Positions 27,503 through 55,575 of a stretch of 64,000 bases of DNA are shown in pieces. This DNA comes from Actinomycetota bacterium (GTDB taxonomy: Bacteria > Actinomycetota > UBA4738). The notes beneath the pieces were generated by a model. It had not been told where the DNA came from and did not search any database. It worked only from the letters and a program-made list of their open reading frames with translations. The position numbers and the translations under genes were made by a program. How positions within the stretch are numbered: the first letter of the stretch is position 1; every line of letters begins with the position of its first letter. The stretch lies in the NCBI GenBank assembly GCA_040414485.1, contig JBEDUK010000013.1:10570-74569 (forward strand), written 5' to 3'.

Positions 27503-27516
27503 GGGCCGTTCGGCCG
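27503..27516. promoter_or_regulatory. inverted repeat GGGCCGTTCGGCCG ~67 nt upstream of DosS-like kinase start
   Basis: member of recurring GGGCCGWWCGGC(C/A)C motif family found at 7-8 promoters in window. Confidence 0.4.
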
Positions 27517-27555
27517 TAGGTGGATCCGGCGCCCTCGTCGACCCTTGCCACCATC

Positions 27556-28089
27556 ATGTTCGTCCGATACTTCGCCGTGCTGCAGATGTCCTCCGTCGAG
27601 GTCGACGAGGTGCTGCTCCGCAACGCCTTCGAATGGATCCCGGGGCTCGCCATGGACGCCGGGGATCACGGGATCCGCCTGTGGGCGGACGTCGGCATCG
27701 GGTCCGAGGGCCACCGTGTTACGAAGACCGTGGAGATCGAGGTGGGCGACGCGACGCGGCTCGGTGAGAAGACCATCCTGCCGCTCGTATGGCGTGCCGC
27801 GGGCGCCGAGGCGCTGTTCCCCGTCATGGAGGGCGATCTCGAGGTCGCCCCGCTCGGGCCGAACCGGACGCAACTGGCGATGAGCGCACGCTACCGCCCG
27901 CCGCTGGGACCCGTGGGGCGCGCGATCGACCGGGCCTTGATGCATCGCGTCGCCGAGGCGACCATCAAGGACTTCGTCGATCGGGTCGCGTCGGCGATCG
28001 AACGCCGCGGCGCGTCGCCCGCCGGTCACGCGGCGATTGCGCCGGCCGCTCCCATCGTGATGGGGACCCCGTCGGCCGGCGTGGTCTAA
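27556..28089 (+). CDS. hypothetical protein (possibly SRPBCC-fold)
   Basis: high GC3 ORF divergent from DosS-like gene; no confident family. Confidence 0.35.
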   Translation: MFVRYFAVLQMSSVEVDEVLLRNAFEWIPGLAMDAGDHGIRLWADVGIGSEGHRVTKTVEIEVGDATRLGEKTILPLVWRAAGAEALFPVMEGDLEVAPLGPNRTQLAMSARYRPPLGPVGRAIDRALMHRVAEATIKDFVDRVASAIERRGASPAGHAAIAPAAPIVMGTPSAGVV

Positions 28090-28119
28090 GACGACACGTC
28101 CGTCCGCGAAGCCCGTTCG

Positions 28120-28536
28120 TCAGGCGATGAGCGCGGATCGGACCGCGCGCAACAGTGCCTCCCGCCCGACCGGCCGCTCGATCACCGACACGTGGTCGCC
28201 GCCGGTCGGAACGAACGGTTCGTCGCCGCTTGCGACCACCACAGTCGGCTTGCCGAGCCCGAAATACAGAAGCAGCAGTTCCCACGCGCGGGTGCCCTCG
28301 CCGGCCACGTCGCCGGCGAGTGTCAGGTCGAGCACGATCGCGTCCGCGTCGGACGCAAGAGGGCACGTGCCCGTTCGGCTGCCCACGCAGTTGTAGTCGG
28401 GCGCGCTCGGGCCGGGACACACCGTCACGTCGAACCCGGCGTCCTCGAGCCAGCCGGCCTCCCAGTCGCGGGCGCGCGCATTCGCTTCGACGACCAGGAC
28501 GCGCCCCCGGCGCCCGGCGGTCCCGCTTGCACGCAT
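28120..28536 (-). CDS. stand-alone receiver (REC) domain protein
   Basis: RVLVVEANARARDWEAGWLEDAGFDV...DAIVLDLTL phospho-acceptor Asp; no output domain. Confidence 0.55.
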   Translation of the reverse strand: MRASGTAGRRGRVLVVEANARARDWEAGWLEDAGFDVTVCPGPSAPDYNCVGSRTGTCPLASDADAIVLDLTLAGDVAGEGTRAWELLLLYFGLGKPTVVVASGDEPFVPTGGDHVSVIERPVGREALLRAVRSALIA

Positions 28537-28616
28537 GCGGCCGACCTCCTCTGTCCCCGCCAGCATGGGTGCCGGGGACCACGCGGCGCCGGGCCGAAGG
28601 TCCCGCTCCCGGGACG

Positions 28617-31496
28617 TCAGATGGACCGGCGCGCGAGCAGCGGCCGGGCGGCCGGCGCCGGCTCGGCGCGGATGCGCGCGTCGACGACGAGGGCGCCTTC
28701 GGGAAGCGCGATGACCGGATTGAGGTCGAGTTCGGCGATCTCCGCGTGTGCCTCGACCATGGCCCCCACGCGAAGGATCACGTCCTCGAGCGCCGCGACG
28801 TCGGCCTTCGGCGCACCACGGAAGCCGTCAAGTAGCGGAAACGTCGCGAGCGAGCGCAGCATCTCCCGGGCCTCCAGGTCGGTGAGCGGCGTCAGGCCGA
28901 CGCGGACGTCCTTGATCAGTTCGGCGGCGGTCCCTCCCGCGCCGACGGCGACGACCGGACCGAACAGCGGGTCGTGCACCACCCCCACCAGCATCTCGAC
29001 GCCGCCGTCGACCATCCGCTGGACGATGAACCCGTCCGCCTGGTGGCCGGCGTCCGTGAGGGCCTTCCGGAGCGCCCTCGCCTCCCGTTCGACCTGTGCG
29101 CGGCCGCTCAGGCCCAATCTGATCGCGCCGATGTCGGTCTTGTGCAGCACACCGGGGCCGAGTGCCTTCAGGGCGACCGTGCCGCCCAGGCGATCCGCTG
29201 CCGCGCCGGCCGCCCGGGCGGAACGCGCGACCTCGGACGGTGGAACCGCGAGCCCGTAGCAGGCGAGCAGGCGTTCGACCTCCTCCACGGTGAGCCACCC
29301 GCCTCCGCGGAGCAGCGCGCTGGCGATCGTGGCCGCCGCGCCGTCCGCATCGACCCGGGCCAGGTCGGGCATGGCGCCGACAGGCGCGCGCCGCCAGGCG
29401 CCGTACCCCACGGTATGGGCGAGCGCGCGGGCCGCTTCCTCTGGGAAGCCGAACGACGGAACGGTGCGCAAGCCGTTCGTTTCGGCAGACGCTCCGTCGT
29501 CCTGCGTGCGTTCGCCTCGAAGGATCGCCTCGGGAAGGCCGTCGGAGGACATGAACACGGCCAGGATCGGCATTTCGTGCCGGCGGCCTGCACTGTCACG
29601 CACCGCCTCGGCCACCGCGGTCGCCTCCGCGGCGAACGGAGGCAGGGAGATGACGATCAGCGCGTCGACCTCTCCGGCGGCCGCCAGCATGTCGATCGCC
29701 TCCGTGTACGCGGACGGGCCGGCCGAGGCGATCAGGTCGACCGGGTTGAGCACGCTCGCCGCGTGCGGGATCCGTTCGCGGAGGCGGCGCTGTGTGCCGT
29801 CGGAGAGGGCGGGCACCGTCAGGCCCAGAGCCTCGCACGCGTCGGCGCAGACGATGCCGGCGCCGCCGCCGTTGGTGACGATGCCGACGCGAGCGCCGCC
29901 CGGCACCGGCTGGCTCGCCAGGACCGATGCCACGTCGAACAACTCCGACAGCGTGTCGGTCCGGATCACGCCTGCCTGGCGGAACAGCGCATCCACGGTG
30001 AGGTCCGACGCGGCGATCAGCGCGCCGGTGTGCGAGCCCGTGGCGCGGACTCCGGCCGCGAAACGTCCGGATTTCACGGCAACGATCGGCTTGCTGCGCG
30101 AGACGCGTCGCGCGATCCTGCCGAAATTCCGGGGATTTCCGAAGGACTCGAGATACAGGAGGATCACCGCCGTATCGTCGTCCTGCTCCCAGAACTGGAT
30201 CACGTCGTTTCCGGAGATGTCGGCCTTGTTCCCGACCGAGACGAAGGACGACATGGCGAGGGGCGGCGCCGTCGCGCGGGTGACCGCGGCGACGCCGAGG
30301 CCGCCGCTCTGCGAGAGGAACCCGATGCGGCCGCGCGGCGGGTATCCGGGTGAGAACGTGGCGTTCATCCGGACCGCGGGGTCGGTGTTCATGATGCCCA
30401 TGCAGTTCGGCCCGATCAGGCGCATGCCGTATTCACGGCAGATCGACAGCAGCTCGCGCTGGCGAGCCCGGCCCTCGGCGCCGGTTTCGGCGAACCCGGC
30501 CGAGATCCCGACGAGCGCGCGGACGCCCGCCTCGCCGCAGGCCCGCGCGACGTCGGCGACCTGGTCGGCGGGAACGGCCACCAGGGCGAGGTCGACCGGG
30601 CCCGGGATGTCCCCGACCGAGGCGAACGCCGGGACCGACTGCACCACGGGAGCCGACGGGTTCACCGGGTAGACCGGTCCCTGGAAGCCCGTGGCGAGCA
30701 GGTTGTGGAACAACTCGCCCCCCACCGTTCCGCGCCGGCGCGACGCGCCGATCACGGCAACGGATGACGGCCGCAGGAAGGTCGTGAGGGCGGCCACCGC
30801 GGCGATGCGGTCGCGGTCCATGAAGCGCTCCAGGCCGTCCGGGGCGAGCGAGGTGGGGACCTCGATCTCCATGTATCCGGGCATCGAGCGGGTACGAAGC
30901 GGGAACCCGCTCGCCCGGATGACGCCGATCATGCGCCGGTTGTCCGGGAGGACCTGGTTGACGAAGACCTGGTAGCCGGCCTCGTGGGCGGCCTCGGCGA
31001 GGTGCGCGAGCAGGATCGTGCCGAGCCCCCGGCCCTGGTAGTCGTCGGCAACGGCGAAGGCCGACTCGGCAGCCACCACGGAAGGCGCGCTCCCCGTCGT
31101 ACCTGCCTCCGCCACCGCGATCTCCGACCCGTGATCGTGCGGCCGGTCCAGCCGCACATAGATCGCGTGGCCCACGATCCGGTGGTCGTGCCCCACGGTG
31201 GCGACGAGCGCGTACCGGTCGAGGTAGTCGACCTCCACCGACTGCTTCGCGGCCCGGTCCAGGTTCGCCCCGGCCGAGAAGAAGCGGAACGCCCGGGATT
31301 CGATGGACAGGTGCGCGTAGAACGCCCGCATCGCGGCCTCGTCGTCGGCTCGCACCGGCCTGATGTGGACCGTCGAGCCGTCTCGCAGGGCGACGTCCGC
31401 CTCGCGGTCGGCCGGATACGGGTGGCGCTCAGCCGTGGCGGCGCCGAGTGCCTTCAGCGTCGGCGTCGCTCGGTCCGGGGCGCTGGGGGTGGTCAC
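28617..31496 (-). CDS. GNAT acetyltransferase fused to ADP-forming acetyl-CoA synthetase (CoA-binding + ligase-CoA + ATP-grasp domains)
   Basis: N-terminal GNAT (QGRGLGTILLAHL), then SVAVIGASRR...GPNCMGI...ATP-grasp; start uncertain (GTG ~31496). Confidence 0.75.
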   Translation of the reverse strand: MTTPSAPDRATPTLKALGAATAERHPYPADREADVALRDGSTVHIRPVRADDEAAMRAFYAHLSIESRAFRFFSAGANLDRAAKQSVEVDYLDRYALVATVGHDHRIVGHAIYVRLDRPHDHGSEIAVAEAGTTGSAPSVVAAESAFAVADDYQGRGLGTILLAHLAEAAHEAGYQVFVNQVLPDNRRMIGVIRASGFPLRTRSMPGYMEIEVPTSLAPDGLERFMDRDRIAAVAALTTFLRPSSVAVIGASRRRGTVGGELFHNLLATGFQGPVYPVNPSAPVVQSVPAFASVGDIPGPVDLALVAVPADQVADVARACGEAGVRALVGISAGFAETGAEGRARQRELLSICREYGMRLIGPNCMGIMNTDPAVRMNATFSPGYPPRGRIGFLSQSGGLGVAAVTRATAPPLAMSSFVSVGNKADISGNDVIQFWEQDDDTAVILLYLESFGNPRNFGRIARRVSRSKPIVAVKSGRFAAGVRATGSHTGALIAASDLTVDALFRQAGVIRTDTLSELFDVASVLASQPVPGGARVGIVTNGGGAGIVCADACEALGLTVPALSDGTQRRLRERIPHAASVLNPVDLIASAGPSAYTEAIDMLAAAGEVDALIVISLPPFAAEATAVAEAVRDSAGRRHEMPILAVFMSSDGLPEAILRGERTQDDGASAETNGLRTVPSFGFPEEAARALAHTVGYGAWRRAPVGAMPDLARVDADGAAATIASALLRGGGWLTVEEVERLLACYGLAVPPSEVARSARAAGAAADRLGGTVALKALGPGVLHKTDIGAIRLGLSGRAQVEREARALRKALTDAGHQADGFIVQRMVDGGVEMLVGVVHDPLFGPVVAVGAGGTAAELIKDVRVGLTPLTDLEAREMLRSLATFPLLDGFRGAPKADVAALEDVILRVGAMVEAHAEIAELDLNPVIALPEGALVVDARIRAEPAPAARPLLARRSI

Positions 31497-31530
31497 CGAC
31501 CGCAGCGTAGCGCCGGTGACCGGCGGACGC

Positions 31531-32214
31531 TCAGCGGGTCGCGGCGGGTTCGGGCTCGCGCGCTTCCCGAACGTGCGGAGGGCTCGGGCGCAGGGGGACG
31601 GAGACGGACGCCGCCGCGGCCGCCCCTTCAACCTGTCGGCCGGCCCGCGCCCGGACCGCCGCGGGGGCGTTGGCGGGCACCGCCTTCCGCTGTGGACGCA
31701 GACCCGCGGTGAGCCCGCGCACCAGGACCAGGAACACCACGATCGCGGCCGTGGACACGTAGATCCACCACATCCACGGCCGGGCGGTGTCGGTTCCCGC
31801 GAACACCCCGTGGACCATGGCCAGCGAGAACATCGGCACGGCCAGGAGGTGCAGGCGCCGCCACCACGCCGGACCGACGCGCTTGCGGAGCCACGACGAA
31901 CAAAGGACCACCACGGTCAGGTACATCGCCAGGATCCCGGCCGCGACCGCGGGCGCCTTGAAGCTCGTGTGGAACGGCACCAGGACGTCGACCAGCGTGA
32001 ACGGCACGAATCGGTCGAGCAGGAGCCCGCCGAGGTGGAAGGTGAGGAGCGCCAACGCGGCCGTGGAGAGGAACTGGTGCACGGCCGTGGCCGTCGCCCG
32101 CGGCAGTCGCTTCCCGCCGATGGTCGTCGTGCCGGCCAGACCCCACGCCACGGTGCCGAACAGCATCACATACGCGCCGATGCCCGCGGCTCGGAGCACG
32201 ATCCACGTCAACAC
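31531..32214 (-). CDS. ferric-reductase-like (MsrQ/YedZ-like) transmembrane haem-binding protein
   Basis: 6 predicted TM helices with conserved His pairs (VHQFL...FHLGG; HLLAVPMF...VHGVF); GTG 32214 after GGGAGG SD, 4 nt after ApbE stop. Confidence 0.55.
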   Translation of the reverse strand: MLTWIVLRAAGIGAYVMLFGTVAWGLAGTTTIGGKRLPRATATAVHQFLSTAALALLTFHLGGLLLDRFVPFTLVDVLVPFHTSFKAPAVAAGILAMYLTVVVLCSSWLRKRVGPAWWRRLHLLAVPMFSLAMVHGVFAGTDTARPWMWWIYVSTAAIVVFLVLVRGLTAGLRPQRKAVPANAPAAVRARAGRQVEGAAAAASVSVPLRPSPPHVREAREPEPAATR

Positions 32215-33191
32215 GCCGCTCCGACCTCCCGTTCGGCGCCGGCGTCGTGCATGTTCACCAGGACGCGGCCGTCCTCCAGGAAGAGCACCACGGGAAACCG
32301 GTCGAGGATCTCCTCGGCCGCCAGGAGCGCCCATTTCGATCGGATCTCCGCCTCCGCGCCCGTGGATGCCCACGCCGTGGCCTGCACGACGCGGGTCGCC
32401 GATGACGTGCCGGTGCGCGGATCGATGATGTGGTGACGACGCTCCGCGCCGCGCGACCACGAGCGGAAGAGGGTCGAGGACGTGGCCAGGGCCCCCCCGT
32501 GGAGGTCGAGGTGCAATGCCACGCCGGACCCGTCGGGGTCGTCGACCGCGACGCGGAGCGCGCCACCGTTCGGGCGCCCCCGAAGCCGGAGGTCGCCCCC
32601 CGCGTCGATCAGGGACCAGGGAAGACTGCTGGTCCGCTGCGACGCGAGATCCGCCGCCCACCCCTTCGCGATCCCACCGAGATCGAGGGCAGTGTCCGGG
32701 GGGAGGAGGACTTGCCACGGATCCGCTACCAGGCGAACGTCCGCCCACCGTCCCACCGGCCCTGGAGGAGGCGCGTCGTCGCCGCCGGCGCGGGTGCCGG
32801 TCACGCGTCGGGGATCACCCGTGCCGGCACGCACCTCCTCGAAGTCGCGGTCGTACCCGGCCGCGACCAGGGCCGGAAGGATGGTGGGATCGAACAGCCC
32901 GTTGCTCGCGCGCGCTCCGGCGAGCGCCAGGGCGAGCACCGCGGCGAACGGATCCGAAATGCGGGTCCACCGTCCCGCTCGTGCGTTGACCTTCGAGAGT
33001 TCGCTGTCGGGCCGGAACCGGGACAGGCGGGCCTCGAGCTCGTCGAACCTCGACCGCACTCGGGCGGCTGCCGTGCGTGCGGCGGCCTCACAGCCGGCCG
33101 GCGCGACGAGGGAGATCTCGGTGCCCATGGCGCGAAACGAATGCCGCGTCTCGGTCGGGGGAACCCTGGTGCGGGCAGGTGCGGTCAGCAT
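32208..33191 (-). CDS. apbE: FAD:protein FMN transferase ApbE (paralog 2)
   Basis: RAMGTEISLV...RFDELEARLSRFRPDSELSKVNARAG...LDLGGIAKGWAAD; trimmed from ORF 32208..33572; start coupled to upstream small gene stop. Confidence 0.8.
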   Translation of the reverse strand: MLTAPARTRVPPTETRHSFRAMGTEISLVAPAGCEAAARTAAARVRSRFDELEARLSRFRPDSELSKVNARAGRWTRISDPFAAVLALALAGARASNGLFDPTILPALVAAGYDRDFEEVRAGTGDPRRVTGTRAGGDDAPPPGPVGRWADVRLVADPWQVLLPPDTALDLGGIAKGWAADLASQRTSSLPWSLIDAGGDLRLRGRPNGGALRVAVDDPDGSGVALHLDLHGGALATSSTLFRSWSRGAERRHHIIDPRTGTSSATRVVQATAWASTGAEAEIRSKWALLAAEEILDRFPVVLFLEDGRVLVNMHDAGAEREVGAAC

Positions 33192-33505
33192 GTCGAGCAC
33201 TTCGTCCGCACGCCGCCCCCGCCTCCGCTCGAGCCGCTGGAGCCGCCCGTGTAGACGTATCGAACCTGGGGCGGGCCGCTTTGTGCCGGCGCATTCGGCG
33301 GATCGACGATCACGATCCGTCGGGTGATCTTGCGGATCTCGGTCGGCGCCTGCTGCTGGCTCTGCGTTCCGGCGGATGCCGGCGGACGCGGGACCGCGTT
33401 CAGCACGACCCACGGCGTGGCGAAGGAGACCGCACCGGCAGCGTAGGCCCAGACACGGATCGTCCGCTTCGACCTGCGCGGCCGGCGAGATGAGGCGGCG
33501 GTCAT
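33185..33505 (-). CDS. small single-TM protein with TEIRKIT motif and Gly/Ser-rich C-terminus ending CSTC; paralog of 34460..34783
   Basis: ATGA overlap with ApbE1 stop, stop abuts ApbE2 start; high GC3; shares TEIRxIT...V.Y..GGSSGSS core with 34460..34783 product. Confidence 0.5.
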   Translation of the reverse strand: MTAASSRRPRRSKRTIRVWAYAAGAVSFATPWVVLNAVPRPPASAGTQSQQQAPTEIRKITRRIVIVDPPNAPAQSGPPQVRYVYTGGSSGSSGGGGGVRTKCSTC

Positions 33506-34473: not shown

Positions 34474-34783
34474 CGCCCTGCCCCTCTTCGCCGTCGTCGC
34501 CGTGGTGATGCGAGCCGCCCGTGTGGTGGTAGGCCGAGGATCCGGAGGACGAGCCGCCGGAGGATCGGTGCACCGTGATCGTCACGGGCGAGGGCTTCGT
34601 CTTCGGCGTTTTCGCCTTCTTGTGGATCGTGATCGTGCGGATCTCCGTCCGAACGATCGGCTTCGCGGGTGCGGCGCGGTCCGCCGAGGCGGCCTGTTCG
34701 AGGGTCGCCGTGTACCCCACCACGCCGGACACCAGGGCGCCCGTCACGCCGCCGGCCAGTGCGATCGCCGTTCGCTTGTTCAA
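34460..34783 (-). CDS. small single-TM protein, TEIRTIT motif, Gly/Ser-rich then His-rich acidic tail (HHTGGSHHHGDDGEEGQGGDDD)
   Basis: overlaps ApbE1 start by 14 nt; paralog of 33185..33505. Confidence 0.5.
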   Translation of the reverse strand: MNKRTAIALAGGVTGALVSGVVGYTATLEQAASADRAAPAKPIVRTEIRTITIHKKAKTPKTKPSPVTITVHRSSGGSSSGSSAYHHTGGSHHHGDDGEEGQGGDDD

Positions 34784-34934: not shown

Positions 34935-34992
34935 AGGCGCTGAGCGACCACGCGGTGCAGCATCGGCGCGGACGAGGGAATCGAGGCGAGCC

Positions 34993-48826: not shown

Positions 48827-49701
48827 GCGGTCGCCTCCTGTTCCGCGGCCGGATCCTCCGCGGTGTCGGCGGCGGCGCGGAACTCCGGCGCCCATCCGGT
48901 GATGAAGCGGAACCGACCGGCCACCTCGGCGGGCGTCAGTCCGAGCGCGCCGAACCGCGCTCCCAGCGCCCCCGTGTTCGGCGGTTGCGACGGCCCGAAG
49001 CACCCGTAACACGCGCGTGCCATGCCGGGGCAGAGCGCCCCGCACCCCGTGCGGGTGACCGGTCCCATGCAGGGTTCGCCCTTCGCCACGAGCACGCAAA
49101 CGAACCCGCGCCGCTTGCACTCGACGCATACGGGCGACGTCGACAGGCGTGGAACGGCGCCCCGGAGCAGCGACACCAGCGCGCCGAGCAACTGGCCGCG
49201 ATCGATCGGGCAGCCCGGAAGTTCCAGGTCGACCCGGACGTGATCCGACACGGGCGTCGACGAGTCGAGCGTGCTGATGTACTCGGGCGAGGCGTACACC
49301 GTCCGGATGTACCGCGCGGTGTCCGCGACGTTGCGGAGGGCCTGGATGCCGCCGGAGGTGGCACAGGCGCCGATCGTGACCAGGAACGTCGACTGGCGCC
49401 GGATCTCCCTGATCTCCTCGAGCTGGGCCGGGGTCGAAACCGAACCTTCGACCAGGGCGACGTCGTAAGGACCGGGCTCCGAGAGACCGCGGGCCTCGCG
49501 GAAGTGGACGATGTCCACGGCGCCGGCGAGCGCCAGCAACGCCTCTTCGGCGTCGAGCAGCTGCAGCTGGCAGCCGTCGCAGGACGACATCTTGAACACG
49601 GCCAGGCGGGGCTTGGGCGGAGCGTTCTTCGAGCCGCCCCGGTCACCGTTCGCGGCCGCTCTGGCGGCGTCCACCCTGGCAGAGATCGCGCCCTCGCTCA
49701 C
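48823..49701 (-). CDS. [NiFe]-hydrogenase small (delta) subunit
   Basis: PKPRLAVFKMSSCDGCQLQLLD...; GTGA overlap with gamma stop. Confidence 0.8.
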   Translation of the reverse strand: MSEGAISARVDAARAAANGDRGGSKNAPPKPRLAVFKMSSCDGCQLQLLDAEEALLALAGAVDIVHFREARGLSEPGPYDVALVEGSVSTPAQLEEIREIRRQSTFLVTIGACATSGGIQALRNVADTARYIRTVYASPEYISTLDSSTPVSDHVRVDLELPGCPIDRGQLLGALVSLLRGAVPRLSTSPVCVECKRRGFVCVLVAKGEPCMGPVTRTGCGALCPGMARACYGCFGPSQPPNTGALGARFGALGLTPAEVAGRFRFITGWAPEFRAAADTAEDPAAEQEATA

Positions 49702-50594
49702 AGCGCATGCGCCCCCAGGAGGTCGGCGATGCGGTCGTAGCGGAACACCGGGCCGTCGGCGCACACGAACGTGGGCCCGAACTGGCAGTGCCCGCACAGG
49801 CGCACGCCGCACTGCATGTTCCGCTCCATCGAGAGGTAGACGCGGTCGGGTGGGACGTCGCGGGCGAGAAGCCCCCTGATCGCGAAGCTCATCATGATCT
49901 CGGGGCCGCACACGAACGCCGTCGTGCGGTCCGGATCGATCCGGGCGCCGTCGAACAGCGTCGTGACGACCCCTTCGCCGTACGGCCATGCGTCGTCGGC
50001 GACGTCGACCGTCAGCGACACCTCCATGCGGCGCGAGCGCATCCACTCGTGCCACGCGTCCAGCAGGCCGCGGTACAGCATGTGCTCCGGTCCGCGGGCA
50101 CCGACCAGCACGATCACCCGCCGGTAGGCGTGACGTTCGCGGAGTGCCTCGTAGATCGCCGGTCGCACCGGCGCCAGGCCGAGGCCGCCGGCCACGATCA
50201 GGAGGTCGCTGCCCTCGGCCGCCTGCATCGGCCACGGCGTGCCGAACGGCCCGCGCAGGCCGACGACGTCGCCCACCCGCAGCGCGCCGATGGCGTCCGT
50301 GACCCTGCCGGTCGATCGGATCGTGTGTGCGAGGCGCGTGGGCAGCCCGGGGTCGGACGAGACCGAGATCGGCACCTCACCGACGCCGAAGACGTAGAGC
50401 ATGTTGAACTGACCGGGGAGGAACCGGTACGCCGCGCGGGCGTCGGGATCCGCGAGGCTCAGCCAGAACGTGCGGGTGTCGGGCGTCTCCCGAACGACCC
50501 GCCGGATCACGGCGGGGCGGTCCAGCGTCTCGTCTCCCGCGAGTGGCGGCGTGAATCCGGCAGCGGTCCGGCTGAGCAGGGCGGGCGCGGTCAT
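49698..50594 (-). CDS. hydrogenase gamma subunit (FAD/NAD(P)-binding, 2Fe-2S; AsrB/HydG-like)
   Basis: RFLPGQFNMLYVFGVGEVPISVSS...GGLGLAPVRP...CGVRLCGHCQFG; ATG 50594 after GAAGGAGGAGG SD. Confidence 0.85.
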   Translation of the reverse strand: MTAPALLSRTAAGFTPPLAGDETLDRPAVIRRVVRETPDTRTFWLSLADPDARAAYRFLPGQFNMLYVFGVGEVPISVSSDPGLPTRLAHTIRSTGRVTDAIGALRVGDVVGLRGPFGTPWPMQAAEGSDLLIVAGGLGLAPVRPAIYEALRERHAYRRVIVLVGARGPEHMLYRGLLDAWHEWMRSRRMEVSLTVDVADDAWPYGEGVVTTLFDGARIDPDRTTAFVCGPEIMMSFAIRGLLARDVPPDRVYLSMERNMQCGVRLCGHCQFGPTFVCADGPVFRYDRIADLLGAHAL

Positions 50595-51718
50595 GCCGGC
50601 ACCTCCTCCTTCTGCCTGGCGCCGTCGGTGCGCCGAATGGCGTCGATCTCCTCGGTCACGTCGATCCCCACGGGGCACCAGGTGATGCACCGCCCGCACC
50701 CGACGCAGCCGGACGTGCCGAACTGGTCGATCCAGGCGGCGAACTTGTGCGTGAGCCACTGGCGGTACCGCGCCTCGCGCGTGGCCCGGACGTCCATGCC
50801 GACGATGTGGCTGAACTCGGATGAGAAGCAGGACGCCCACTCGCGCGTGCGCGTGGCCGTCACCCCGGTGATGTCCGAGGTGTCGACCACGTCGTGGCAG
50901 AAGCAGGTCGGGCATGCCGACGTGCAGTTGCCGCAGGCGAGACACCGCTCCGCGACCTCCGCCCAGCGCGGGTGCTCGCGGTTGCGGTACAGCAGCGACG
51001 GCATGTCGTCGGTGCGGAGTTCGCGTCCCATGGTCTCGACGGCGCCGCGACGGATGCGTTCGGCGTCGGCCTCCTCCTCTTCCGTGGACGCACGCGTGCC
51101 GATCGCGTGGAGGACCTCCTCGCCCCGTTCGGTGCCGACCTCCGCCAGGAACCCGTCCTCGTCCAGCTCGGTCAGCGCGATATCGAACCCCGTGGTGCAC
51201 CTGGGTCCGGTCCCCATCGAAGCGCAGAAGCAGGTGCCGCCCGGCGAGCCGCAGTTGACGCCGACGAAGAAGGCATCGCGACGGCGCCGTGCGTAGTGCG
51301 GATCGGCGACCGCGCCGTTCAGGAAGACCCGGTCCTGAACAGCGATCGCGTGGAGGTCGCACGAGCGGAGCCCGATGAACGCCAGCGGGCGGTCGGTGTC
51401 GAGAGGTGCCGCGGGCCTGGACTTCAGCGACCCGTTCGTCTTCGTGATCGTCGCCAGGTCCTCGCGAGCCGGGAACAGGAACCGCTTCCCCGAGTCGGGC
51501 CCGTGAGCCCAGGCGAACATCAGATGGTCAGGTTGCTTGACCAACCGGTACCGGCCCGCATCCTGGATCTCGCGGACGCCCTGCGGGAGATCGGCCGCGC
51601 CGCCGATGTGATCCAGGACGATGGCGCCGTCCCGGACGGTTGGTCCGATCAGATCGAATCCGAGCGCCCTGAGTTCGTTCAGCAGGCGTTCGAACCCGGC
51701 CCGATCGATGAATCGCAT
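50591..51718 (-). CDS. hydrogenase beta subunit (4Fe-4S, AsrA/HydB-like)
   Basis: CLACGNCTSACPTCFC and CVGCGRCITWCP clusters; ATG 51718 after GAAGGAGG SD. Confidence 0.85.
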   Translation of the reverse strand: MRFIDRAGFERLLNELRALGFDLIGPTVRDGAIVLDHIGGAADLPQGVREIQDAGRYRLVKQPDHLMFAWAHGPDSGKRFLFPAREDLATITKTNGSLKSRPAAPLDTDRPLAFIGLRSCDLHAIAVQDRVFLNGAVADPHYARRRRDAFFVGVNCGSPGGTCFCASMGTGPRCTTGFDIALTELDEDGFLAEVGTERGEEVLHAIGTRASTEEEEADAERIRRGAVETMGRELRTDDMPSLLYRNREHPRWAEVAERCLACGNCTSACPTCFCHDVVDTSDITGVTATRTREWASCFSSEFSHIVGMDVRATREARYRQWLTHKFAAWIDQFGTSGCVGCGRCITWCPVGIDVTEEIDAIRRTDGARQKEEVPA

Positions 51719-51807
51719 CGCCGACGCCTCCTTCGACCCTTCGGCCTTCATGCGCGATGCTCGTCCGCGAATAGGCGGCCGTGTGGGGGCGAAGGGCCAG
51801 GTGGACG

Positions 51808-51821
51808 TGGGCCGAACGGCC
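51808..51821. promoter_or_regulatory. perfect inverted repeat GGGCCGAACGGCCC in divergent promoter between hydrogenase operon (-90) and YbaK/P-type ATPase operon (-78)
   Basis: best instance of recurring motif family. Confidence 0.45.
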
Positions 51822-51898
51822 CGGCTCAAACGTGCCGGCCGGTCGTTGCCTGGCTTCATGATCAGAGGTGAAGACGTTGACGCCGTGCCCCACGACGG

Positions 51899-52405
51899 GT
51901 GGACCGCGAGGAGACGCGGGTGAACGGTGTGGACCGGCTTTGCAGCTACCTGGACGAGCGCCGCGTCACGTATCACCGGCGCGCGCACCCGTTCGCGTTC
52001 ACGGCTCGCGAGATCGCCCACCTCGAACGCCTGGAGCCTCACCGCGTGGCGAAGGTGGTGATCGCCTCGGCCGGCGGGTCGCTCGTCATGCTCGTGCTTC
52101 CGGCCCCCTGCCGGGTCGACGCGCGCCGGGTTGCCGCGGCGCTGAAGACGCACGACGTGCGCCTTGCCCACGAGGAGGAGTTCACCCCGCGGTTCCCGGA
52201 CTGCGATCCGGGAGCGATGCCGCCGTTCGGCAACCTCTACGACATGCCGGTCTATGTCGACGAGTCGCTGACGAACGAGGCCAGCATCACCTTCCAGGCC
52301 GGAAGTCACGCGGAGACGCTGACGATCGACTTCGGCGACTTCGAACGTCTGGTTGGGCCGGTTGTCGCAACCTTCGCCGAGCCCGAGATCCGGTACGGCG
52401 CATGA
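51899..52405 (+). CDS. YbaK/ProX-like aminoacyl-tRNA deacylase domain protein
   Basis: PPFGNLYDMPVYVDESL...ITFQAGSHAETL; GTG start region 51899-51929. Confidence 0.65.
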   Translation: MDREETRVNGVDRLCSYLDERRVTYHRRAHPFAFTAREIAHLERLEPHRVAKVVIASAGGSLVMLVLPAPCRVDARRVAAALKTHDVRLAHEEEFTPRFPDCDPGAMPPFGNLYDMPVYVDESLTNEASITFQAGSHAETLTIDFGDFERLVGPVVATFAEPEIRYGA

Positions 52406-55269
52406 GCGGTGCGTCCACACTCCGCGCGGATCCCGGTGCGGCGGCCCGGGCCGAGGCGTCCGGCACGAGCACGCTCGGCGGCCCTCCGTGGATGCTCGCG
52501 ATCGAGGACGTCTACGGAGCGCTGAGGTCTGGACCGGGGGGTCTGTCCGGTTCCGAGGCGGCGCGGCGGCTCGCGACCGCCGGCCGGAACGAGATCCAGG
52601 AGATCCGCGGCCCGAGCCTTGCGCGGCGTTTCCTCGCGCAGTTCGTCAACCTCTTCGCGCTGCTCCTGTGGGGCGGAGCCGCGCTGGCGTTCGTCGCGGG
52701 CACGCCGCAGTTCGGTGCCGCGATCATCGCGGTGATCGTGCTGAACGGGGTGTTCGGGATGCTGCAGGAGTACCGTGCCGAACGGGCGGTGACGGCGCTT
52801 CGGCGCCTCCTTCCGCAGGTCGCGACCGTCGTGCGGGACGGCGACGCCATGCCCGCGCCCGCTGAGTCGCTCGTCGCCGGCGACCTGTTGGTGGTGGCTG
52901 AGGGTGACCGCGTCTCAGCCGACGCGCGCCTCGTCGACCAGACGGACCTGCGGGTCGACGAGTCCAGCCTCACGGGCGAGGCGCATCCGGTCCACAAGAC
53001 GGCGGAGGCCGAACGAGAGCCGCCGGCGACCTCGATCCAGGCGCACAACATGCTATTCGCGGGCAGCACCGTGATGGCCGGCTCCGGCCGCGCGATCGTG
53101 ACCGCCACGGGGATGGGCACCGAGTTCGGCCGGATCGCCCGCCTGACCCAGGAGGTGCGACAGGACCCGAGCCCCCTGCAGGTCGAGGTCGGACGCGTCG
53201 CGCGGCGGGTGGCGCTGCTGTCCGTCGTCCTCGGTGTCGGGTTCTTCGTCATCGGGTACGTGTTCGCGGGGCTGCCCCTGAAGGATGGCGCGATCTTCGC
53301 GATCGGGATCGTGCTGGCGAACGTGCCCGAGGGCCTGTTGCCCACGATGACGCTGGCGTTGGCGATGGCCGTGCAACGCATGGCGAAGCGCAATGCGCTC
53401 GTGAAACGGCTGTCGTCGGTCGAGACGCTCGGTTCGTGCACGGTCATCTGCACGGACAAGACCGGGACGATCACGAAGAACCAGATGACGGTCCGGGAGC
53501 TTTGGGCGCCGACTGGGCACGTCGCCCGGATCTCCGGGTCGGGCTACGAACCGGTGGGCGAGGTGAGGGTGTGCGATGCGCCGGCCGCGCGTCAGGACCT
53601 GATTCCCTTCCTGCCGATCCTTCGGATCGGCCACATGTGCAGCTCCGCGCGCCTCGTGCCCCCGTCGGACGAAGGCGCCGCGTGGCAGATCCGCGGCGAC
53701 CCGACCGAGGGCGCGCTCCTCGTGGCCGCCACCAGAGCCGGCCTCGACCGTGACGAGGACCTGCGGCTGCGCCCGGTCGTTCGCGAGCTGGCGTTCGACC
53801 CGAAACGCAAGCGCATGTCCACGATCCATCGGGCGCTTGCGTCGGACGGTCTGCTGGTCGCGTACGTCAAAGGTGCGCCGCGGGAGTTGCTCGAGCATTG
53901 CTCGCTCGTGCTCGTGGGCGGTCAGGAGGTGCCGCGAACGGCGGCGCTCACCGATATGGCGATGGCGGAGAACGACCGGATGGCGCGGGCCGGAATGCGC
54001 GTGCTCGGCATGGCGTACCGGTACCTTCCCGAAGAGCAGGAAGCTCACCTGGGCTCGCTGCATCCAGGCGACGTCGAACAGGAACTGGTGTTCGCTGGGC
54101 TCGTCGCGATGCAGGATCAGCCCAGGGACGAGGTTCCCGACGCGGTCGAGCGGTGCCATGCGGCCGGCATCCGGATCATCATGATCACCGGGGATTACGG
54201 GCTCACGGCCGAGGCGATCGCCCGTGAGGTGGGGATCGTTCGAAGCGGGGACGGGGCCGCCGTCCGCGTCATCGACAGCGCCGAGCTGGCACGCCTCTCG
54301 GACGACGAACTCCGGGAGGTGCTCGGCACGCCACAGCTGATCTTCTCCAGGGCGACGCCCGAGCACAAGCTCCGCGTGGTGCGCGCGCTTCAGGAGATGG
54401 GTCAGGTGGTGGCGGTGACCGGCGACGGCGTGAACGACGCACCGGCCTTGCGCCGCGCCGACATCGGCGTCGCGATGGGTCTGACAGGCACCGACGTGGC
54501 GCGCGAGGCCGCCGACATGATCCTGGTGGACGACAACTTCGCGACCATCGTCAGCGCCGTCGAAGAGGGCCGCGCGATCTTCGACAACATGCGGAAGTTC
54601 ATCGTCTACATCTTCGCCCACCTGTCGCCCGAGGCCATCCCGTTCATCTTCTACGCGCTGTTCCGGGTGCCGCTGCCGCTGACCGTCATGCAGATCCTGG
54701 CCATCGACCTCGGGACCGAGACCTTGCCGGCCCTGGCGCTGGGGATCGAGCGCCCGGAGCCGGACGTGATGACGCGGCCGCCCAGGCGCAGGGCGGAGCG
54801 GCTGCTCTCGGGCGGCGCGCTTGCCCGCGGGTACGGATTCCTGGGCGGGATGACATCGGTCGTGGTGATGTCGGCGTTCTTCCTCTACCTGACCGGGCAG
54901 GGGTGGCACTGGGGCGAGCACCAGCCCCCGACGTCCGAGGCCGGCGCCGTGGCGTCGACGATCGTCTTCCTGGGGATCGTGATCATGCAGATCGGCAACG
55001 CGTTCGCGTGCCGGACCGAACGGGTTTCGGCGTTCTCCGTCGGATTGTTCTCGAACCGGTTCCTGCTGTGGGGCATCGCCTTCGAGGTGGCGTTCGCGGC
55101 GGCCCTGATCTACGTTCCGGCGCTGCATGGGCTCTTCGGAACGGGGACCGTCCGCCCGGTGTGGTGGGTGTATCTGCTCGCGTTCGTCCCCGTCGTGTTC
55201 ACGGCGGAGGAGGCGCGGAAGGCAATCATGCGACGGCGCGCGGGACACATTCTGAGCGCACACCGCTGA
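52402..55269 (+). CDS. P-type cation-transporting ATPase (type II, Ca/Mg-type)
   Basis: ATGA overlap with YbaK-like stop; TGES-like, DKTGTIT phosphorylation site, GDGVNDAPAL hinge, 10 TM. Confidence 0.9.
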   Translation: MSGASTLRADPGAAARAEASGTSTLGGPPWMLAIEDVYGALRSGPGGLSGSEAARRLATAGRNEIQEIRGPSLARRFLAQFVNLFALLLWGGAALAFVAGTPQFGAAIIAVIVLNGVFGMLQEYRAERAVTALRRLLPQVATVVRDGDAMPAPAESLVAGDLLVVAEGDRVSADARLVDQTDLRVDESSLTGEAHPVHKTAEAEREPPATSIQAHNMLFAGSTVMAGSGRAIVTATGMGTEFGRIARLTQEVRQDPSPLQVEVGRVARRVALLSVVLGVGFFVIGYVFAGLPLKDGAIFAIGIVLANVPEGLLPTMTLALAMAVQRMAKRNALVKRLSSVETLGSCTVICTDKTGTITKNQMTVRELWAPTGHVARISGSGYEPVGEVRVCDAPAARQDLIPFLPILRIGHMCSSARLVPPSDEGAAWQIRGDPTEGALLVAATRAGLDRDEDLRLRPVVRELAFDPKRKRMSTIHRALASDGLLVAYVKGAPRELLEHCSLVLVGGQEVPRTAALTDMAMAENDRMARAGMRVLGMAYRYLPEEQEAHLGSLHPGDVEQELVFAGLVAMQDQPRDEVPDAVERCHAAGIRIIMITGDYGLTAEAIAREVGIVRSGDGAAVRVIDSAELARLSDDELREVLGTPQLIFSRATPEHKLRVVRALQEMGQVVAVTGDGVNDAPALRRADIGVAMGLTGTDVAREAADMILVDDNFATIVSAVEEGRAIFDNMRKFIVYIFAHLSPEAIPFIFYALFRVPLPLTVMQILAIDLGTETLPALALGIERPEPDVMTRPPRRRAERLLSGGALARGYGFLGGMTSVVVMSAFFLYLTGQGWHWGEHQPPTSEAGAVASTIVFLGIVIMQIGNAFACRTERVSAFSVGLFSNRFLLWGIAFEVAFAAALIYVPALHGLFGTGTVRPVWWVYLLAFVPVVFTAEEARKAIMRRRAGHILSAHR

Positions 55270-55296
55270 CGATCCAGCCCGGCCGACGAGCTTGTC

Positions 55297-55497
55297 TCAG
55301 TGGTTGACCGGTTGCCTCCGGAGGACCTTCGCCGCGCCTGCGCTCGGGAAATAGACGGACTCGTGCCCGTCCGACCAGCGCACGCGGTACTGGATGCCAG
55401 TCGGATGTTCGATGATTTCGACGACGTCGCCCTCACGCGGCGTCTGACCCACCCCTTCCGACTCCACGATGATGCGATCGCCGACGCTGGCGTCCAT
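55297..55497 (-). CDS. DUF1918-like small protein (66 aa)
   Basis: GDRIIVES...YRVRWSDGHESVYFP; ATG 55497 after GAAGGAGG SD. Confidence 0.55.
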   Translation of the reverse strand: MDASVGDRIIVESEGVGQTPREGDVVEIIEHPTGIQYRVRWSDGHESVYFPSAGAAKVLRRQPVNH

Positions 55498-55561
55498 GGG
55501 CGCCTCCTTCTCGCTGCGTTGGGTGCGTGACTGATCATCGCGTGGAGGCGCTTCTTCCGCA

Positions 55562-55575
55562 GGGACGTTCGGCCC
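55562..55575. promoter_or_regulatory. inverted repeat GGGACGTTCGGCCC 65 nt upstream of DUF1918 gene
   Basis: recurring motif family; this copy carries GGGAC half-site as in mycobacterial DosR boxes. Confidence 0.4.

What the first reader, a model, noticed from the sequence alone, without database searches (positions are those of the whole stretch)
27503..55575. Recurring 14-bp inverted repeat GGGCCGWWCGGC(C/A)C at -60 to -90 of at least seven genes: a candidate DosR-like regulon encoded next to its own DosS/DosR pair
The same palindrome occurs in the promoter regions of seven or eight genes:
- 27503: GGGCCGTTCGGCCG, upstream of the GAF-GAF kinase.
- 34921: GGGGCGTTCGGCCC, upstream of the CBS-BON gene and in the divergent promoter of the ApbE-module / ACD operon.
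- 35766: GGGCCATTCGGCAC, upstream of the CBS-pair gene.
- 37567: GGGCCGACCGGCAC, upstream of the CoA-transferase gene.
- 37983: GGGCCCTTCGGCAC, upstream of the tgs gene.
- 51808: GGGCCGAACGGCCC, perfect repeat between the hydrogenase operon and the YbaK/P-type ATPase operon.
- 55562: GGGACGTTCGGCCC, upstream of the DUF1918 gene.
- 43045: AGGCCGAACGGCCG, weaker, upstream of the MFS gene.
All lie in non-coding DNA at a consistent distance from the start codons. The motif matches 10-11 of 14 positions of the mycobacterial DosR box core GGGACTWWAGTCCC. The genes behind it are orthologues or analogues of DosR-regulon members in mycobacteria (devS autoregulation, hrp1, tgs1, ctpF-like ATPase, Hyd3 hydrogenase in M. 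smegmatis). The window also encodes the candidate cognate regulator (25063..25713).
Basis: partly seen in the sequence, partly recalled or inferred. Interest (0 to 1): 0.8.

Follow-up and report, generated by a model that had tools for sequence, protein, structure and literature searches.

The report
DosR/OsdR-type hypoxia regulon operator boxes
A short palindromic DNA box recurs in front of about ten operons next to a hypoxia-type sensor kinase and regulator in an uncultured soil actinobacterium; it is the same box already shown to bind the DosR-like regulator OsdR in Streptomyces, so this is a new example of a known regulon.

Summary
All eight sites exist as quoted; the perfect repeat starts at 51809, not 51808. 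GGGCCGWWCGGCCC with up to 2 mismatches occurs 17 times against 5.7±2.4 in shuffles. Ten of the 17 lie in the roughly 9% of the window that is non-coding (p≈5e-7). Unbiased motif discovery on the intergenic DNA returns GGGCCGATCGGCCC.

The invariant bases (G2, G3, C5 of each half) are the ones shown to be critical for M. tuberculosis DevR binding.

The adjacent regulator is 48% identical to DevR and keeps its DNA-contact residues K179, K182 and N183. The kinase keeps the haem His and Tyr of DosT/DevS.

The boxes survive in an 83%-identical relative. Group 3b hydrogenase promoters of eight more distant relatives share the layout box, 9 nt, weak box, 23 nt, -10-like hexamer.

It is a new member of the known DevR/OsdR kind. 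Modest additions are tandem boxes 23 bp apart, a likely PFOR target at 61481, and a compact hypoxic-fermentation gene island.

The parts
25063..25713 (-). DevR/OsdR-like NarL-family response regulator (216 aa from ATG 25713; public annotation uses GTG 25734, 223 aa)
   Evidence: Pfam Response_reg + GerE. Best PDB hit is DevR 3c3w, E=1.3e-53, 48% identity, with K179/K182/N183 conserved. JGI names close homologues 'response regulator DevR'.
25787..27436 (-). DevS/DosT-like sensor kinase (GAF-GAF-HisKA_3-HATPase_c)
   Evidence: Pfam. The GAF-A domain best matches DosT 2vzw (E=3e-48) and DevS. The motifs PPHHPPMR (haem His) and GNIYLAEK (Tyr) are kept.
27503..27516 (.). Primary box GGGCCGTTCGGCCG in the divergent promoter of the kinase/regulator genes and a conserved 177-aa hypothetical gene
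   Evidence: It is the longest invariant block in the alignment with L032 and L031.
27480..27493 (.). Possible weak secondary box (half-site GGGAC on the minus strand), 23 nt towards the kinase
   Evidence: GGGACC is invariant in the three-genome alignment; geometry. Inferred.
27556..28089 (+). Conserved hypothetical gene (177 aa) divergent from the kinase; candidate target
   Evidence: A gene is present in the same position in L017, L026, L031 and L032. A -10-like GACCCT lies 23 nt after the box.
28591..28604 (.). Extra candidate box GGGCCGAAGGTCCC, between the GNAT-ACD gene end and a 148-aa ORF
   Evidence: function unclear.
28617..34783 (-). Operon: 107-aa ORF, ApbE, ApbE, ferric-reductase-like membrane protein, GNAT fused to an NDP-forming acyl-CoA synthetase
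   Evidence: Pfam and NCBIfam. The operon is syntenic in L032, L017 and L026. It is served by the 34921 box, 144 nt from the first gene.
34921..34934 (.). Primary box GGGGCGTTCGGCCC in the divergent promoter of CBS-BON and the ApbE/ACD operon
   Evidence: Retained as AGGCCGATCGACCC in L032. A CAGCAT hexamer lies 23 nt downstream.
34993..35712 (+). CBS-CBS-BON protein gene
   Evidence: Pfam. The ATG 34993 start is supported by the alignment with L032.
35766..35779 (.). Primary box GGGCCATTCGGCAC upstream of the CBS-pair gene
   Evidence: CGGCCGAACGGCCC lies at the same place in L032. TAGCGT at 35803-35808 lies 23 nt after the box.
35852..36220 (+). CBS-pair protein (hrp1/Rv2626c-like)
   Evidence: Pfam CBS x2.
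36236..37507 (-). Acetyl-CoA hydrolase/transferase family (butyryl-CoA:acetate CoA-transferase-like)
37567..37580 (.). Primary box GGGCCGACCGGCAC upstream of the CoA-transferase gene
37983..37996 (.). Primary box GGGCCCTTCGGCAC upstream of tgs
   Evidence: GACGAT lies 23 nt after the box.
38074..39474 (+). Wax-ester synthase / diacylglycerol acyltransferase (tgs)
   Evidence: Pfam WS_DGAT_cat and WS_DGAT_C; NCBIfam TIGR02946 above its cut-off.
43045..43058 (.). Weaker box AGGCCGAACGGCCG between an MFS transporter gene and a 137-aa ORF
   Evidence: The MFS start codon is uncertain, so its position relative to the gene is uncertain.
43068..43081 (.). Second box GGACCGACCGGCCG, 23 nt from the 43045 box
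   Evidence: 10.9 bits with the OsdR matrix.
44845..51751 (-). Group 3b-type [NiFe] hydrogenase operon: beta 50591-51751, gamma 49698-50510, delta 48823-49701, alpha 47504-48826, HycI protease 46944-47411, HypF 44845-46947
   Evidence: Pfam. The NCBIfam best hits are the sulfhydrogenase subunits HydABGD/ShyABCD, all below the equivalog cut-offs.
51809..51822 (.). Perfect primary box GGGCCGAACGGCCC in the divergent promoter of the hydrogenase and YbaK/P-type ATPase operons
   Evidence: A homologous box sits upstream of hydrogenase operons in relatives.
51786..51799 (.). Secondary (proximal) box on the hydrogenase side; reads TGGCCCTTCGCCCC on the minus strand
   Evidence: It lies 23 nt from the primary box. 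It is conserved as GGGCCTTCGCCC in 7 relatives.
51757..51762 (-). -10-like hexamer GAGCAT of the hydrogenase promoter, 5 nt before the ATG (probably leaderless)
   Evidence: It lies 46 nt after the primary box. GAGNNT occupies the same offset in 7 of the 8 relatives and CAATCT in the eighth. Inferred; no TSS data.
51832..51845 (.). Weak secondary box GTGCCGGCCGGTCG on the YbaK/ATPase side
   Evidence: weak (2.4 bits).
51899..55269 (+). YbaK-like deacylase gene and P2-type (CtpF-like) cation ATPase gene
   Evidence: Pfam tRNA_edit; Cation_ATPase_N, E1-E2_ATPase and Cation_ATPase_C.
55297..55497 (-). DUF1918 gene
   Evidence: Pfam.
55562..55575 (.). Primary box GGGACGTTCGGCCC upstream of DUF1918
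   Evidence: It is the top hit of the independent OsdR matrix at 19.0 bits.
61457..61517 (.). Three phased candidate boxes between PFOR and pntA: 61457 GGGTCCGATGGCCC, 61481 GGGCCGGATGGCCC, 61504 GGCCCGAAGTGCCT
Evidence: TAACGT lies 47 nt after the 61481 box on the PFOR side.
57758..61396 (-). Pyruvate:ferredoxin oxidoreductase (1212 aa); candidate additional target
   Evidence: Pfam POR_N, POR, EKR, PFOR_II, TPP_enzyme_C.

Best explanation
The 14-bp palindromes are operator boxes (Dev/OsdR boxes) of the DevR/DosR/OsdR-type response regulator encoded at 25063-25713.

Proposed mechanism. When O2 falls, or NO or CO appears, the haem-GAF kinase (25787-27436) phosphorylates the regulator. Regulator dimers then bind boxes of the form (A)GGGCCGWWCGGCCC(T), reading G2, G3 and C5 of each half-site through the conserved Lys-Lys-Asn of the recognition helix. 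Binding activates transcription.

Two promoter layouts are inferred:
- A single strong box whose end lies 23 nt before a -10-like NANNNT hexamer. The box centre is then near -42 and overlaps the -35 region. This applies to CBS-BON, the CBS pair, tgs, DUF1918 and the 177-aa gene.
- A strong distal box one 23-bp step further upstream, with a weak proximal box in between that is presumably filled cooperatively. This applies to the hydrogenase, PFOR, the MFS gene and probably the CoA-transferase and the kinase.

The regulon is a compact island of about 35 kb that would let the cell survive without oxygen. It comprises PFOR, a CoA-transferase, a GNAT-ACD protein, a group 3b H2-evolving hydrogenase with its maturation genes, TAG synthase, CBS-domain proteins, a CtpF-like ATPase, an ApbE/ferric-reductase module, and the kinase/regulator genes themselves.

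What is shown: the motif, its enrichment, its conservation, its geometry and the protein similarities. What is inferred: that this regulator binds these boxes, the direction of regulation, the signal, and the transcription start sites.
For: Enrichment:
- 17 matches against 5.7±2.4 expected.
- 10 of 17 matches lie in the 9.3% of the window that is intergenic, p=5e-7.

Independent matrix: a matrix from the 25 published S. coelicolor OsdR sites (PMC5069765) ranks 55562, 27503, 51809 and 34921 as the four best positions in the whole window. Seven of the 10 hits at ≥10 bits are intergenic, p=6e-6.

Critical bases: the invariant positions among 15 boxes are G2, G3, C5 and G10, with C12 near-invariant. 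These correspond to G4, G5 and C7 of the 18-bp Dev box, which are the critical bases for DevR binding (PMC3177182).

Proteins: regulator and kinase similarities to DevR and to DosT/DevS, with DNA-contact and haem residues kept.

Footprinting: in L032 (83% DNA identity) the boxes before the kinase, CBS-BON and the CBS pair are retained. L031 has a perfect box before its kinase.

Hydrogenase relatives (59-69% protein identity): 11 boxes in 1.9 kb of -130..-30 windows against 25 in 92.7 kb elsewhere, Poisson p=1e-11. The layout P box, 9 nt, S box, 23 nt, -10-like hexamer (GAGNNT in 7 of 8, CAATCT in L046) is shared by all eight relatives and the window.

Tandem spacing: the best neighbouring box lies at exactly ±23 nt for 5 of 10 sites, p=1.5e-5.

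-10-like hexamers: they are enriched at 22-24 nt (5 observed, 0.9 expected, p=0.002) and at 45-47 nt (6 observed, 0.9 expected, p=2e-4) after the box.

Literature: tandem Dev boxes with the proximal one near -42.5 are the hallmark of DevR promoters. Hyh and Tgs1 are DosR-controlled in M. smegmatis.
Against: - No binding, expression or TSS data exist for this organism. The link between regulator and box is by analogy and co-location.
- The tandem spacing is 23 bp, whereas the spacing documented for M. tuberculosis tgs1 is 21 bp.
- The -10 and secondary-box analyses were made after seeing the data.
- More distant relatives (regulator 87-92% identical; L017-L029) show only a few, more GGGAC-like boxes within ±10 kb. 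De novo discovery there is barely better than competing motifs.
- No USP-domain gene, the commonest DosR/OsdR target class, was found among the window genes scanned.
- One strong box lies inside a coding sequence (50239).
- The MFS start codon, and therefore the position of the 43045 box, is uncertain.
Confidence: 0.82

Rival explanations
1. The boxes are real operators, but they are bound by another transcription factor encoded elsewhere in the genome, for example another NarL/LuxR-family regulator or a Crp/FNR-like protein that reads GTG-N8-CAC-like variants. The neighbouring DevR-like protein would then regulate something else.
For: Three boxes end in GGCAC and one begins GTGCC, which faintly recalls Crp-type GTG..CAC sites. 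NarL-family paralogues are numerous in actinobacteria, and NCBIfam has no DevR-specific model that the protein passes. Only 64 kb of the genome was seen.
Against: The invariant bases are GG.C/G.CC, not the GTGA/TCAC of Crp sites. The core is identical to the EMSA-verified OsdR box. A conserved box sits in the regulator/kinase promoter in three genomes. The recognition helix is identical to that of DevR. The only other regulator in the window is an OmpR/PhoP-type protein beside phoU, and that type binds direct repeats.
Confidence: 0.08
2. The palindromes act at the nucleic-acid level, as RNA or DNA hairpins (terminators, attenuators, processing sites) or as copies of a small REP-like repeat, and not as protein operators.
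For: A GC-rich inverted repeat can form a 5-bp stem. One site (35766) lies between two co-directional genes, and one (28591) lies just after a gene end.
Against: Among 14 distinct boxes every departure from the palindrome breaks pairing (12 cells), and there is not one compensatory change. No T-run follows any site (sequence). Most sites lie in divergent promoter regions. Flanks are not conserved between copies, so this is not a mobile repeat. Rfam finds nothing in the window.
Confidence: 0.03
3. The recurrence is a by-product of 70% G+C composition, that is, chance GC-rich palindromes.
For: Seven matches with up to 2 mismatches lie in coding DNA, roughly the number that shuffles predict.
Against: The total is threefold above shuffles and no shuffle reaches it. 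The intergenic density is 14-fold higher (10 in about 6 kb against 7 in about 58 kb). Distance to start codons and to -10-like hexamers is constant. The boxes are conserved in orthologous promoters.
Confidence: 0.02

Closest known systems
OsdK/OsdR (SCO0203/SCO0204) regulon of Streptomyces coelicolor (Urem et al. 2016, PMC5069765)
   Same: - The 14-bp core is identical: OsdR consensus AGGGCCGATCGGCCCT.
- Boxes lie 50-100 nt upstream of start codons.
- Boxes cluster in the chromosomal neighbourhood of the regulator and include an autoregulatory box.
- The partner is a DevS-like kinase.
- A matrix from the OsdR sites finds the window's sites.
   Different: - Gene content differs. S. coelicolor targets are mainly USP genes, nitrate reductase/transport, PPDK and nitroreductase.
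- Here the targets are a group 3b hydrogenase, PFOR, tgs, a CoA-transferase, a GNAT-ACD protein, an ApbE module, CBS proteins and a P-type ATPase. No USP or nar genes are seen in the window.
- The host is an uncultured Actinomycetota lineage, not Streptomyces.
- The protein identity to OsdR could not be measured here.
DevS/DosT-DevR (DosR) dormancy regulon of Mycobacterium tuberculosis
   Same: - The regulator is 48% identical, with the DNA-contact residues and the phospho-acceptor region conserved.
- The kinase haem-GAF domain is conserved.
- The palindrome has the same critical bases (G4, G5, C7 of the Dev box).
- Boxes are arranged in tandem and the proximal one is inferred to overlap -35.
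- Targets are shared: tgs1, hrp1 (CBS pair), a ctpF-like ATPase, and the regulator's own operon.
   Different: - The box core is GGGCCGWWCGGCCC against GGGACTWWAGTCCC (10 of 14 positions).
- The tandem step is 23 bp against 21 bp at tgs1-Rv3131.
- No hspX, USP, narK2 or nitroreductase genes are seen in the window.
- The gene order is kinase then regulator.
DosR regulon of Mycobacterium smegmatis (Hyh group 3b hydrogenase, Tgs1; Berney et al. 2014 as cited in bioRxiv 10.1101/2023.09.11.557286)
   Same: A fermentative group 3b [NiFe] hydrogenase and a TAG synthase fall under the hypoxia regulator. The implied physiology is the same: H2 evolution as a redox valve, together with carbon storage.
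   Different: Here control of the hydrogenase is only predicted from the boxes. The island additionally carries PFOR, a CoA-transferase and a GNAT-ACD protein, which suggests a more complete fermentative route.

Membership tests
DevR/DosR/OsdR two-component regulon | NarL/LuxR-family response regulator (REC + GerE HTH) most similar to DevR, with the DNA-contact residues Lys179, Lys182 and Asn183 | tested here: met
   Pfam. The best PDB hit is 3c3w DevR at E=1.3e-53; the next is VraR at 8e-44. AEKTVKNYVS is identical, and identity is 48% over 204 residues.
DevR/DosR/OsdR two-component regulon | Adjacent sensor kinase with tandem GAF domains, the first binding haem (proximal His, distal Tyr), plus HisKA_3 and HATPase_c | tested here: met
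   Pfam. GAF-A against DosT 2vzw gives E=3e-48. The His of PPHHPPMR and the Tyr of GNIYLAEK align with the DosT/DevS residues. Haem binding itself is not testable here.
DevR/DosR/OsdR two-component regulon | Palindromic operator with GGG-N-C half-sites, in which G4, G5 and C7 of the 18-bp Dev box are critical | tested here: met
   Invariant G2, G3, C5 and G10, and near-invariant C12, in 15 boxes, mapped to G4, G5 and C7. De novo consensus GGGCCGATCGGCCC. The OsdR matrix finds the sites.
DevR/DosR/OsdR two-component regulon | Autoregulation: a box in the promoter of the regulator/kinase operon | tested here: met
   Box 27503 lies 73.5 nt upstream of the kinase start. It is conserved in L032 and L031, and L031 has a further box before its regulator gene.
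DevR/DosR/OsdR two-component regulon | At least two tandem boxes per promoter in helical phase, with the proximal box overlapping -35 (M. tuberculosis hallmark) | tested here: inconclusive
   A second box at ±23 nt accompanies 5 of 10 sites, p=1.5e-5, and is conserved in hydrogenase promoters. Several promoters show no recognisable second box. The spacing is 23 bp, not 21 bp, and TSSs are unknown.
DevR/DosR/OsdR two-component regulon | Target set enriched in hypoxia and dormancy functions shared with known regulons | tested here: met
   tgs, a CBS pair, a CtpF-like ATPase and a group 3b hydrogenase are behind boxes. These are known DosR targets and general knowledge of Rv3130c, Rv2626c and Rv1997. 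USP genes are absent from the window genes scanned but present beside the regulator in relatives.
DevR/DosR/OsdR two-component regulon | Phosphorylation-dependent binding of the regulator to the boxes, and induction by hypoxia, NO or CO | not testable with these tools
   Requires EMSA or footprinting and expression data. The organism is uncultured.
Group 3b [NiFe] hydrogenase (Hyh/sulfhydrogenase type) | Four-subunit beta-gamma-delta-alpha operon with an FeS/NAD(P)-binding diaphorase part | tested here: met
   Fer4_22, NAD_binding_1 with DHODB_Fe-S_bind, Oxidored_q6 and NiFeSe_Hases occur in that order. The NCBIfam best hits are HydB/G/D/A and ShyB/C/D/A, all below the equivalog cut-offs. No phylogenetic classification was done.

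The most novel reading that the evidence does not exclude
In a widespread but uncultured lineage of soil Actinomycetota, a DosR/OsdR-type switch controls a self-contained 'hypoxic fermentation island'. The island comprises PFOR, a CoA-transferase, a GNAT-ACD protein, a group 3b H2-evolving hydrogenase, TAG synthesis and a flavinylated extracytosolic reductase module. The promoter layout of distal box, weak proximal box and -10 hexamer, built on a fixed 23-bp step, is conserved upstream of group 3b hydrogenase operons across divergent high-G+C soil metagenome relatives (presumably Actinomycetota). This would mean that DosR-gated H2-evolving fermentation, so far shown only in M. smegmatis, is an ancestral and common survival strategy of aerobic soil actinobacteria.
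Probability: 0.45. Interest if true: 0.45.

Novelty: new member of a known kind. Interest (0 to 1): 0.33.

Why it matters
It extends the DosR/OsdR hypoxia regulon, known from Mycobacterium and Streptomyces, to an uncultured soil actinobacterial lineage. It also gives a concrete, testable list of about ten promoters.

The predicted targets point to H2-evolving fermentation with TAG storage as this lineage's answer to oxygen loss. The conserved box in front of group 3b hydrogenase operons in other metagenome contigs suggests that the link between DosR-type control and fermentative hydrogenases is general. That bears on soil H2 cycling and on the persistence of aerobes in fluctuating oxygen.

It does not reveal a new regulatory principle.

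Tried and rejected
- A genome-contig scan with the kinase returned only distant relatives (37-54% identical; Solirubrobacteraceae, other Actinomycetota and Chloroflexi MAGs). They show no excess of the box and were uninformative.
- Exact-sequence look-ups of the window's own regulator found no contig, either with the 216/217-aa form or as P0001, so the source record could not be read.
It was replaced by de novo EM and by the OsdR-site matrix.
- A generic scan for GGG-N8-CCC with inner palindromy was both too strict and too loose, and was dropped.
- De novo EM on ±10 kb around more distant regulators (87-92% identical) gave GGGACGATCGTCCC only marginally ahead of unrelated motifs. It counts as weak support only.
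- Rfam found no RNA family in the window.
- NCBIfam has no model that names the regulator as DevR. The best hit is MadR, below its cut-off.
- A polyphosphate-kinase search gave no taxonomy finer than 'Actinomycetota bacterium'.
- Six small ORFs near the boxes have no significant Pfam hit, so no alternative regulator was found there.
- The hairpin/terminator reading was rejected: there are no compensatory changes and no T-runs.
Full report
**Observation**

The window is 68-73% G+C. My GC3-based gene calls make it about 91% coding.

The only slip is that the perfect palindrome starts at 51809, not 51808.

GGGCCGWWCGGCCC with up to 2 mismatches occurs 17 times. Dinucleotide-preserving shuffles give 5.7±2.4, and 0 of 100 reach 17. 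Ten of the 17 lie in intergenic DNA, which is 9.3% of the window, binomial p=5e-7. All ten lie between 27.5 and 61.5 kb. The intergenic DNA of the left 27 kb has none.

- a NarL/LuxR response regulator
- a GAF-GAF-HisKA_3 kinase
- a GNAT fused to an NDP-forming acyl-CoA synthetase, followed by a ferric-reductase-like protein and two ApbE proteins
- a CBS-BON protein and a CBS-pair protein
- an acetyl-CoA hydrolase/transferase
- a WS/DGAT (tgs)
- an MFS transporter
- a four-subunit hydrogenase of sulfhydrogenase (group 3b) type, with HycI and HypF
- YbaK and a P2-type ATPase
- DUF1918

(i) A palindrome-constrained EM run on all 29 intergenic regions (5.8 kb) returns GGGCCGATCGGCCC as the best motif.

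(ii) I built a 16-bp matrix solely from the 25 S. coelicolor OsdR sites listed in Urem et al. 2016. Over the whole window its four best positions are 55562, 27503, 51809 and 34921. Seven of the 10 hits at ≥10 bits are intergenic (p=6e-6), and a reversed-sequence control gives 3 such hits.

(iii) Among 14 distinct boxes, every departure from the palindrome is one-sided. Twelve cells are unpaired and none shows a compensatory change. Independently degenerate protein half-sites behave this way; a selected hairpin does not.

**What the box is**

The published OsdR consensus is 5'-AGGGCCGATCGGCCCT. It was derived from 12 Streptomyces osdR promoters and verified by EMSA, including point mutants. Its sites lie at -50 to -100 and cluster around osdR. 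The window's consensus has the same 14-bp core.

The positions that never vary in 15 boxes from the window and two close relatives are G2, G3, C5 and G10, with C12 nearly invariant. In the numbering of the 18-bp Dev box these are G4, G5 and C7. Chauhan et al. (PMC3177182) showed these to be the critical bases for DevR binding. [quoted passage not shown] The position that differs between the mycobacterial box (A) and this box (C) is not among the critical ones.

**The regulator and kinase**

The regulator's best solved relative is M. tuberculosis DevR (3c3w, E=1.3e-53), ten orders of magnitude ahead of the next hit, VraR. Identity is 48% over 204 residues. The recognition-helix segment AEKTVKNYVS is identical and contains Lys179, Lys182 and Asn183.

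The kinase's first GAF domain best matches the haem domains of DosT and DevS (E=3e-48 to 3e-43). It keeps the His of the P-x-H-H-P-P-M-R segment and the Tyr of G-N-x-Y-L. That these are the haem ligand and the distal Tyr is taken from established DevS/DosT literature, recalled from memory.

JGI annotations call close homologues 'response regulator DevR'. NCBIfam has no DevR-specific model, and its best hit (MadR) is below cut-off.

**Related sequences**

The lineage is uncultured. The names attached to homologues go no further than 'Actinomycetota bacterium'.

L032 is a forest-soil contig with 83% DNA identity, syntenic with window 25063-35815. It keeps a box before the kinase (CGGCCGAACGGCCC), before CBS-BON (AGGCCGATCGACCC) and before the CBS-pair gene (CGGCCGAACGGCCC).

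In a three-way alignment of kinase promoters the box is the longest invariant block. This holds even against L031, which aligns to the window only in the regulator gene. L031 has a perfect GGGCCGTTCGGCCC between its kinase and a divergent USP operon, and another box before its regulator gene.

Loci whose regulator is only 87-92% identical (L017-L029) share neighbours: ACD, ApbE, CBS-BON, USP and P-type ATPase genes. They show only a few boxes, of a more GGGAC-like kind, such as GGGACCAAGGTCCC and GGGACGAAGGTCCC. The statistical signal there is weak.

**Hydrogenase promoters**

A metagenome scan with the first hydrogenase subunit found relatives at 59-69% protein identity with 69-72% G+C.

In the 19 closest, boxes matching GGGNCNWWNGNCCC at 9 or more of the 10 specified positions occur 11 times in the -130..-30 windows (1.9 kb). 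They occur 25 times in the remaining 92.7 kb (Poisson p=1e-11). More distant, lower-G+C relatives lack them.

Eight of these promoters and the window share one layout: strong box, 9 nt, weak box (GGGCCTTCGCCC), 23 nt, a -10-like hexamer. That hexamer is GAGNNT in seven of the eight and CAATCT in L046.

**Promoter geometry (inferred)**

Around the ten intergenic boxes of the window, the best neighbouring box lies at exactly ±23 nt in five cases: 35766, 37983, 43045, 51809 and, at the next rank, 61481. The probability is 1.5e-5 given 54 possible offsets.

A -10-like NANNNT hexamer lies 22-24 nt after the box end for five promoter directions: the 177-aa gene, CBS-BON, the CBS pair, tgs and DUF1918. 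Six such hexamers lie at 45-47 nt, in five promoter directions: the hydrogenase, MFS, PFOR, the 137-aa ORF and pntA. For both windows 0.9 are expected (p=0.002 and 2e-4).

If transcription starts about 7 nt after these hexamers, the promoter-proximal box is centred near -42. That is the position of the proximal Dev box in M. tuberculosis, where P and S lie at -42.5 and -63.5 at tgs1 and tandem boxes are a hallmark. There DosR contacts sigma region 4 and the alpha subunit.

These geometric analyses were done after looking at the data, and no TSS is known, so they are suggestive only. The 23-bp step differs from the 21 bp documented in M. tuberculosis.

**Mechanism and regulon**

The best-supported reading is a DevR/OsdR-type activator regulon. 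It is autoregulated, and it controls a roughly 35-kb island whose content makes sense for life without oxygen:
- PFOR.
- CoA-transferase and a GNAT-ACD protein.
- A group 3b hydrogenase as an electron valve.
- TAG synthase.
- CBS-domain proteins.
- A CtpF-like ATPase.
- An ApbE/ferric-reductase module.

In M. smegmatis the group 3b hydrogenase Hyh and Tgs1 are DosR-controlled.

**Rivals**

- Another transcription factor reading the same boxes, about 0.08.
- Hairpin or terminator elements, about 0.03. There is no covariation, no T-run and no Rfam hit.
- Chance, about 0.02.

**Novelty**

The kind of system is known: DevR in mycobacteria and OsdR in Streptomyces. The box is essentially the OsdR box.

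What is new is the host lineage, the particular target set, and the conserved two-box hydrogenase promoter.

I rate it a new member of a known kind, interest about 0.33.

Noticed in passing
window 19548-19865: Upstream of a pstS-like gene there are 11-nt direct repeats (GTTCACCGGAC, GTTCACCGTGT, then ATTCACTTCC) followed by TAGCGT. These look like actinobacterial PhoP PHO boxes (identification from memory).
   Followed up: no
window 1-25036; also L017, L026, L030: The left 25 kb is a phosphate island: two pst-like ABC systems, several PBP_like_2 proteins, CYTH-CHAD, ppk1, phoU and an OmpR-type regulator. The phoU-regulator-pst-ppk block lies directly beside the devR-like gene in three other genomes as well. 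This is a conserved linkage of phosphate and hypoxia regulators.
   Followed up: partly
window 31531-34783: Two ApbE flavin-transferase genes, a ferric-reductase-like membrane protein and small ORFs form a module resembling extracytosolic flavinylated redox systems. It travels with the devS/devR pair in L017, L019, L026, L029 and L032. A 442-nt stretch between the ApbE genes (33060-33501) got no gene call; the matching stretches in L026 and L029 are Gly-rich and of low complexity.
   Followed up: partly
window 50239-50252: A high-scoring box (GTGCCGAACGGCCC; 11.5 bits with the OsdR matrix) lies inside the hydrogenase gamma-subunit gene. It could be an internal operator or chance.
   Followed up: no
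window 28617-31496: This 959-aa protein has an N-terminal GNAT followed by an NDP-forming acyl-CoA synthetase. That domain order is known from actinobacterial Pat-type protein acetyltransferases (from memory). It may therefore be a protein acetyltransferase and not a catabolic ACD.
   Followed up: partly
window 55656-56654: A 332-aa ORF on the minus strand has no Pfam hit. My GC3 caller truncated it to 125 aa, which points to atypical codon usage for this genome.
   Followed up: no
window 51751 and 27436/37507: For the hydrogenase, kinase and CoA-transferase genes the -10-like hexamer ends only 5-9 nt before the start codon. This suggests leaderless mRNAs. The hydrogenase relatives instead have a 25-35-nt leader with a GGAGG Shine-Dalgarno sequence.
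   Followed up: partly
window 1934-2662 and 13669-14205: Two long stretches (729 and 537 nt) have no confident gene call and contain many GAACG/CGTTC-rich segments. They were not examined.
   Followed up: no
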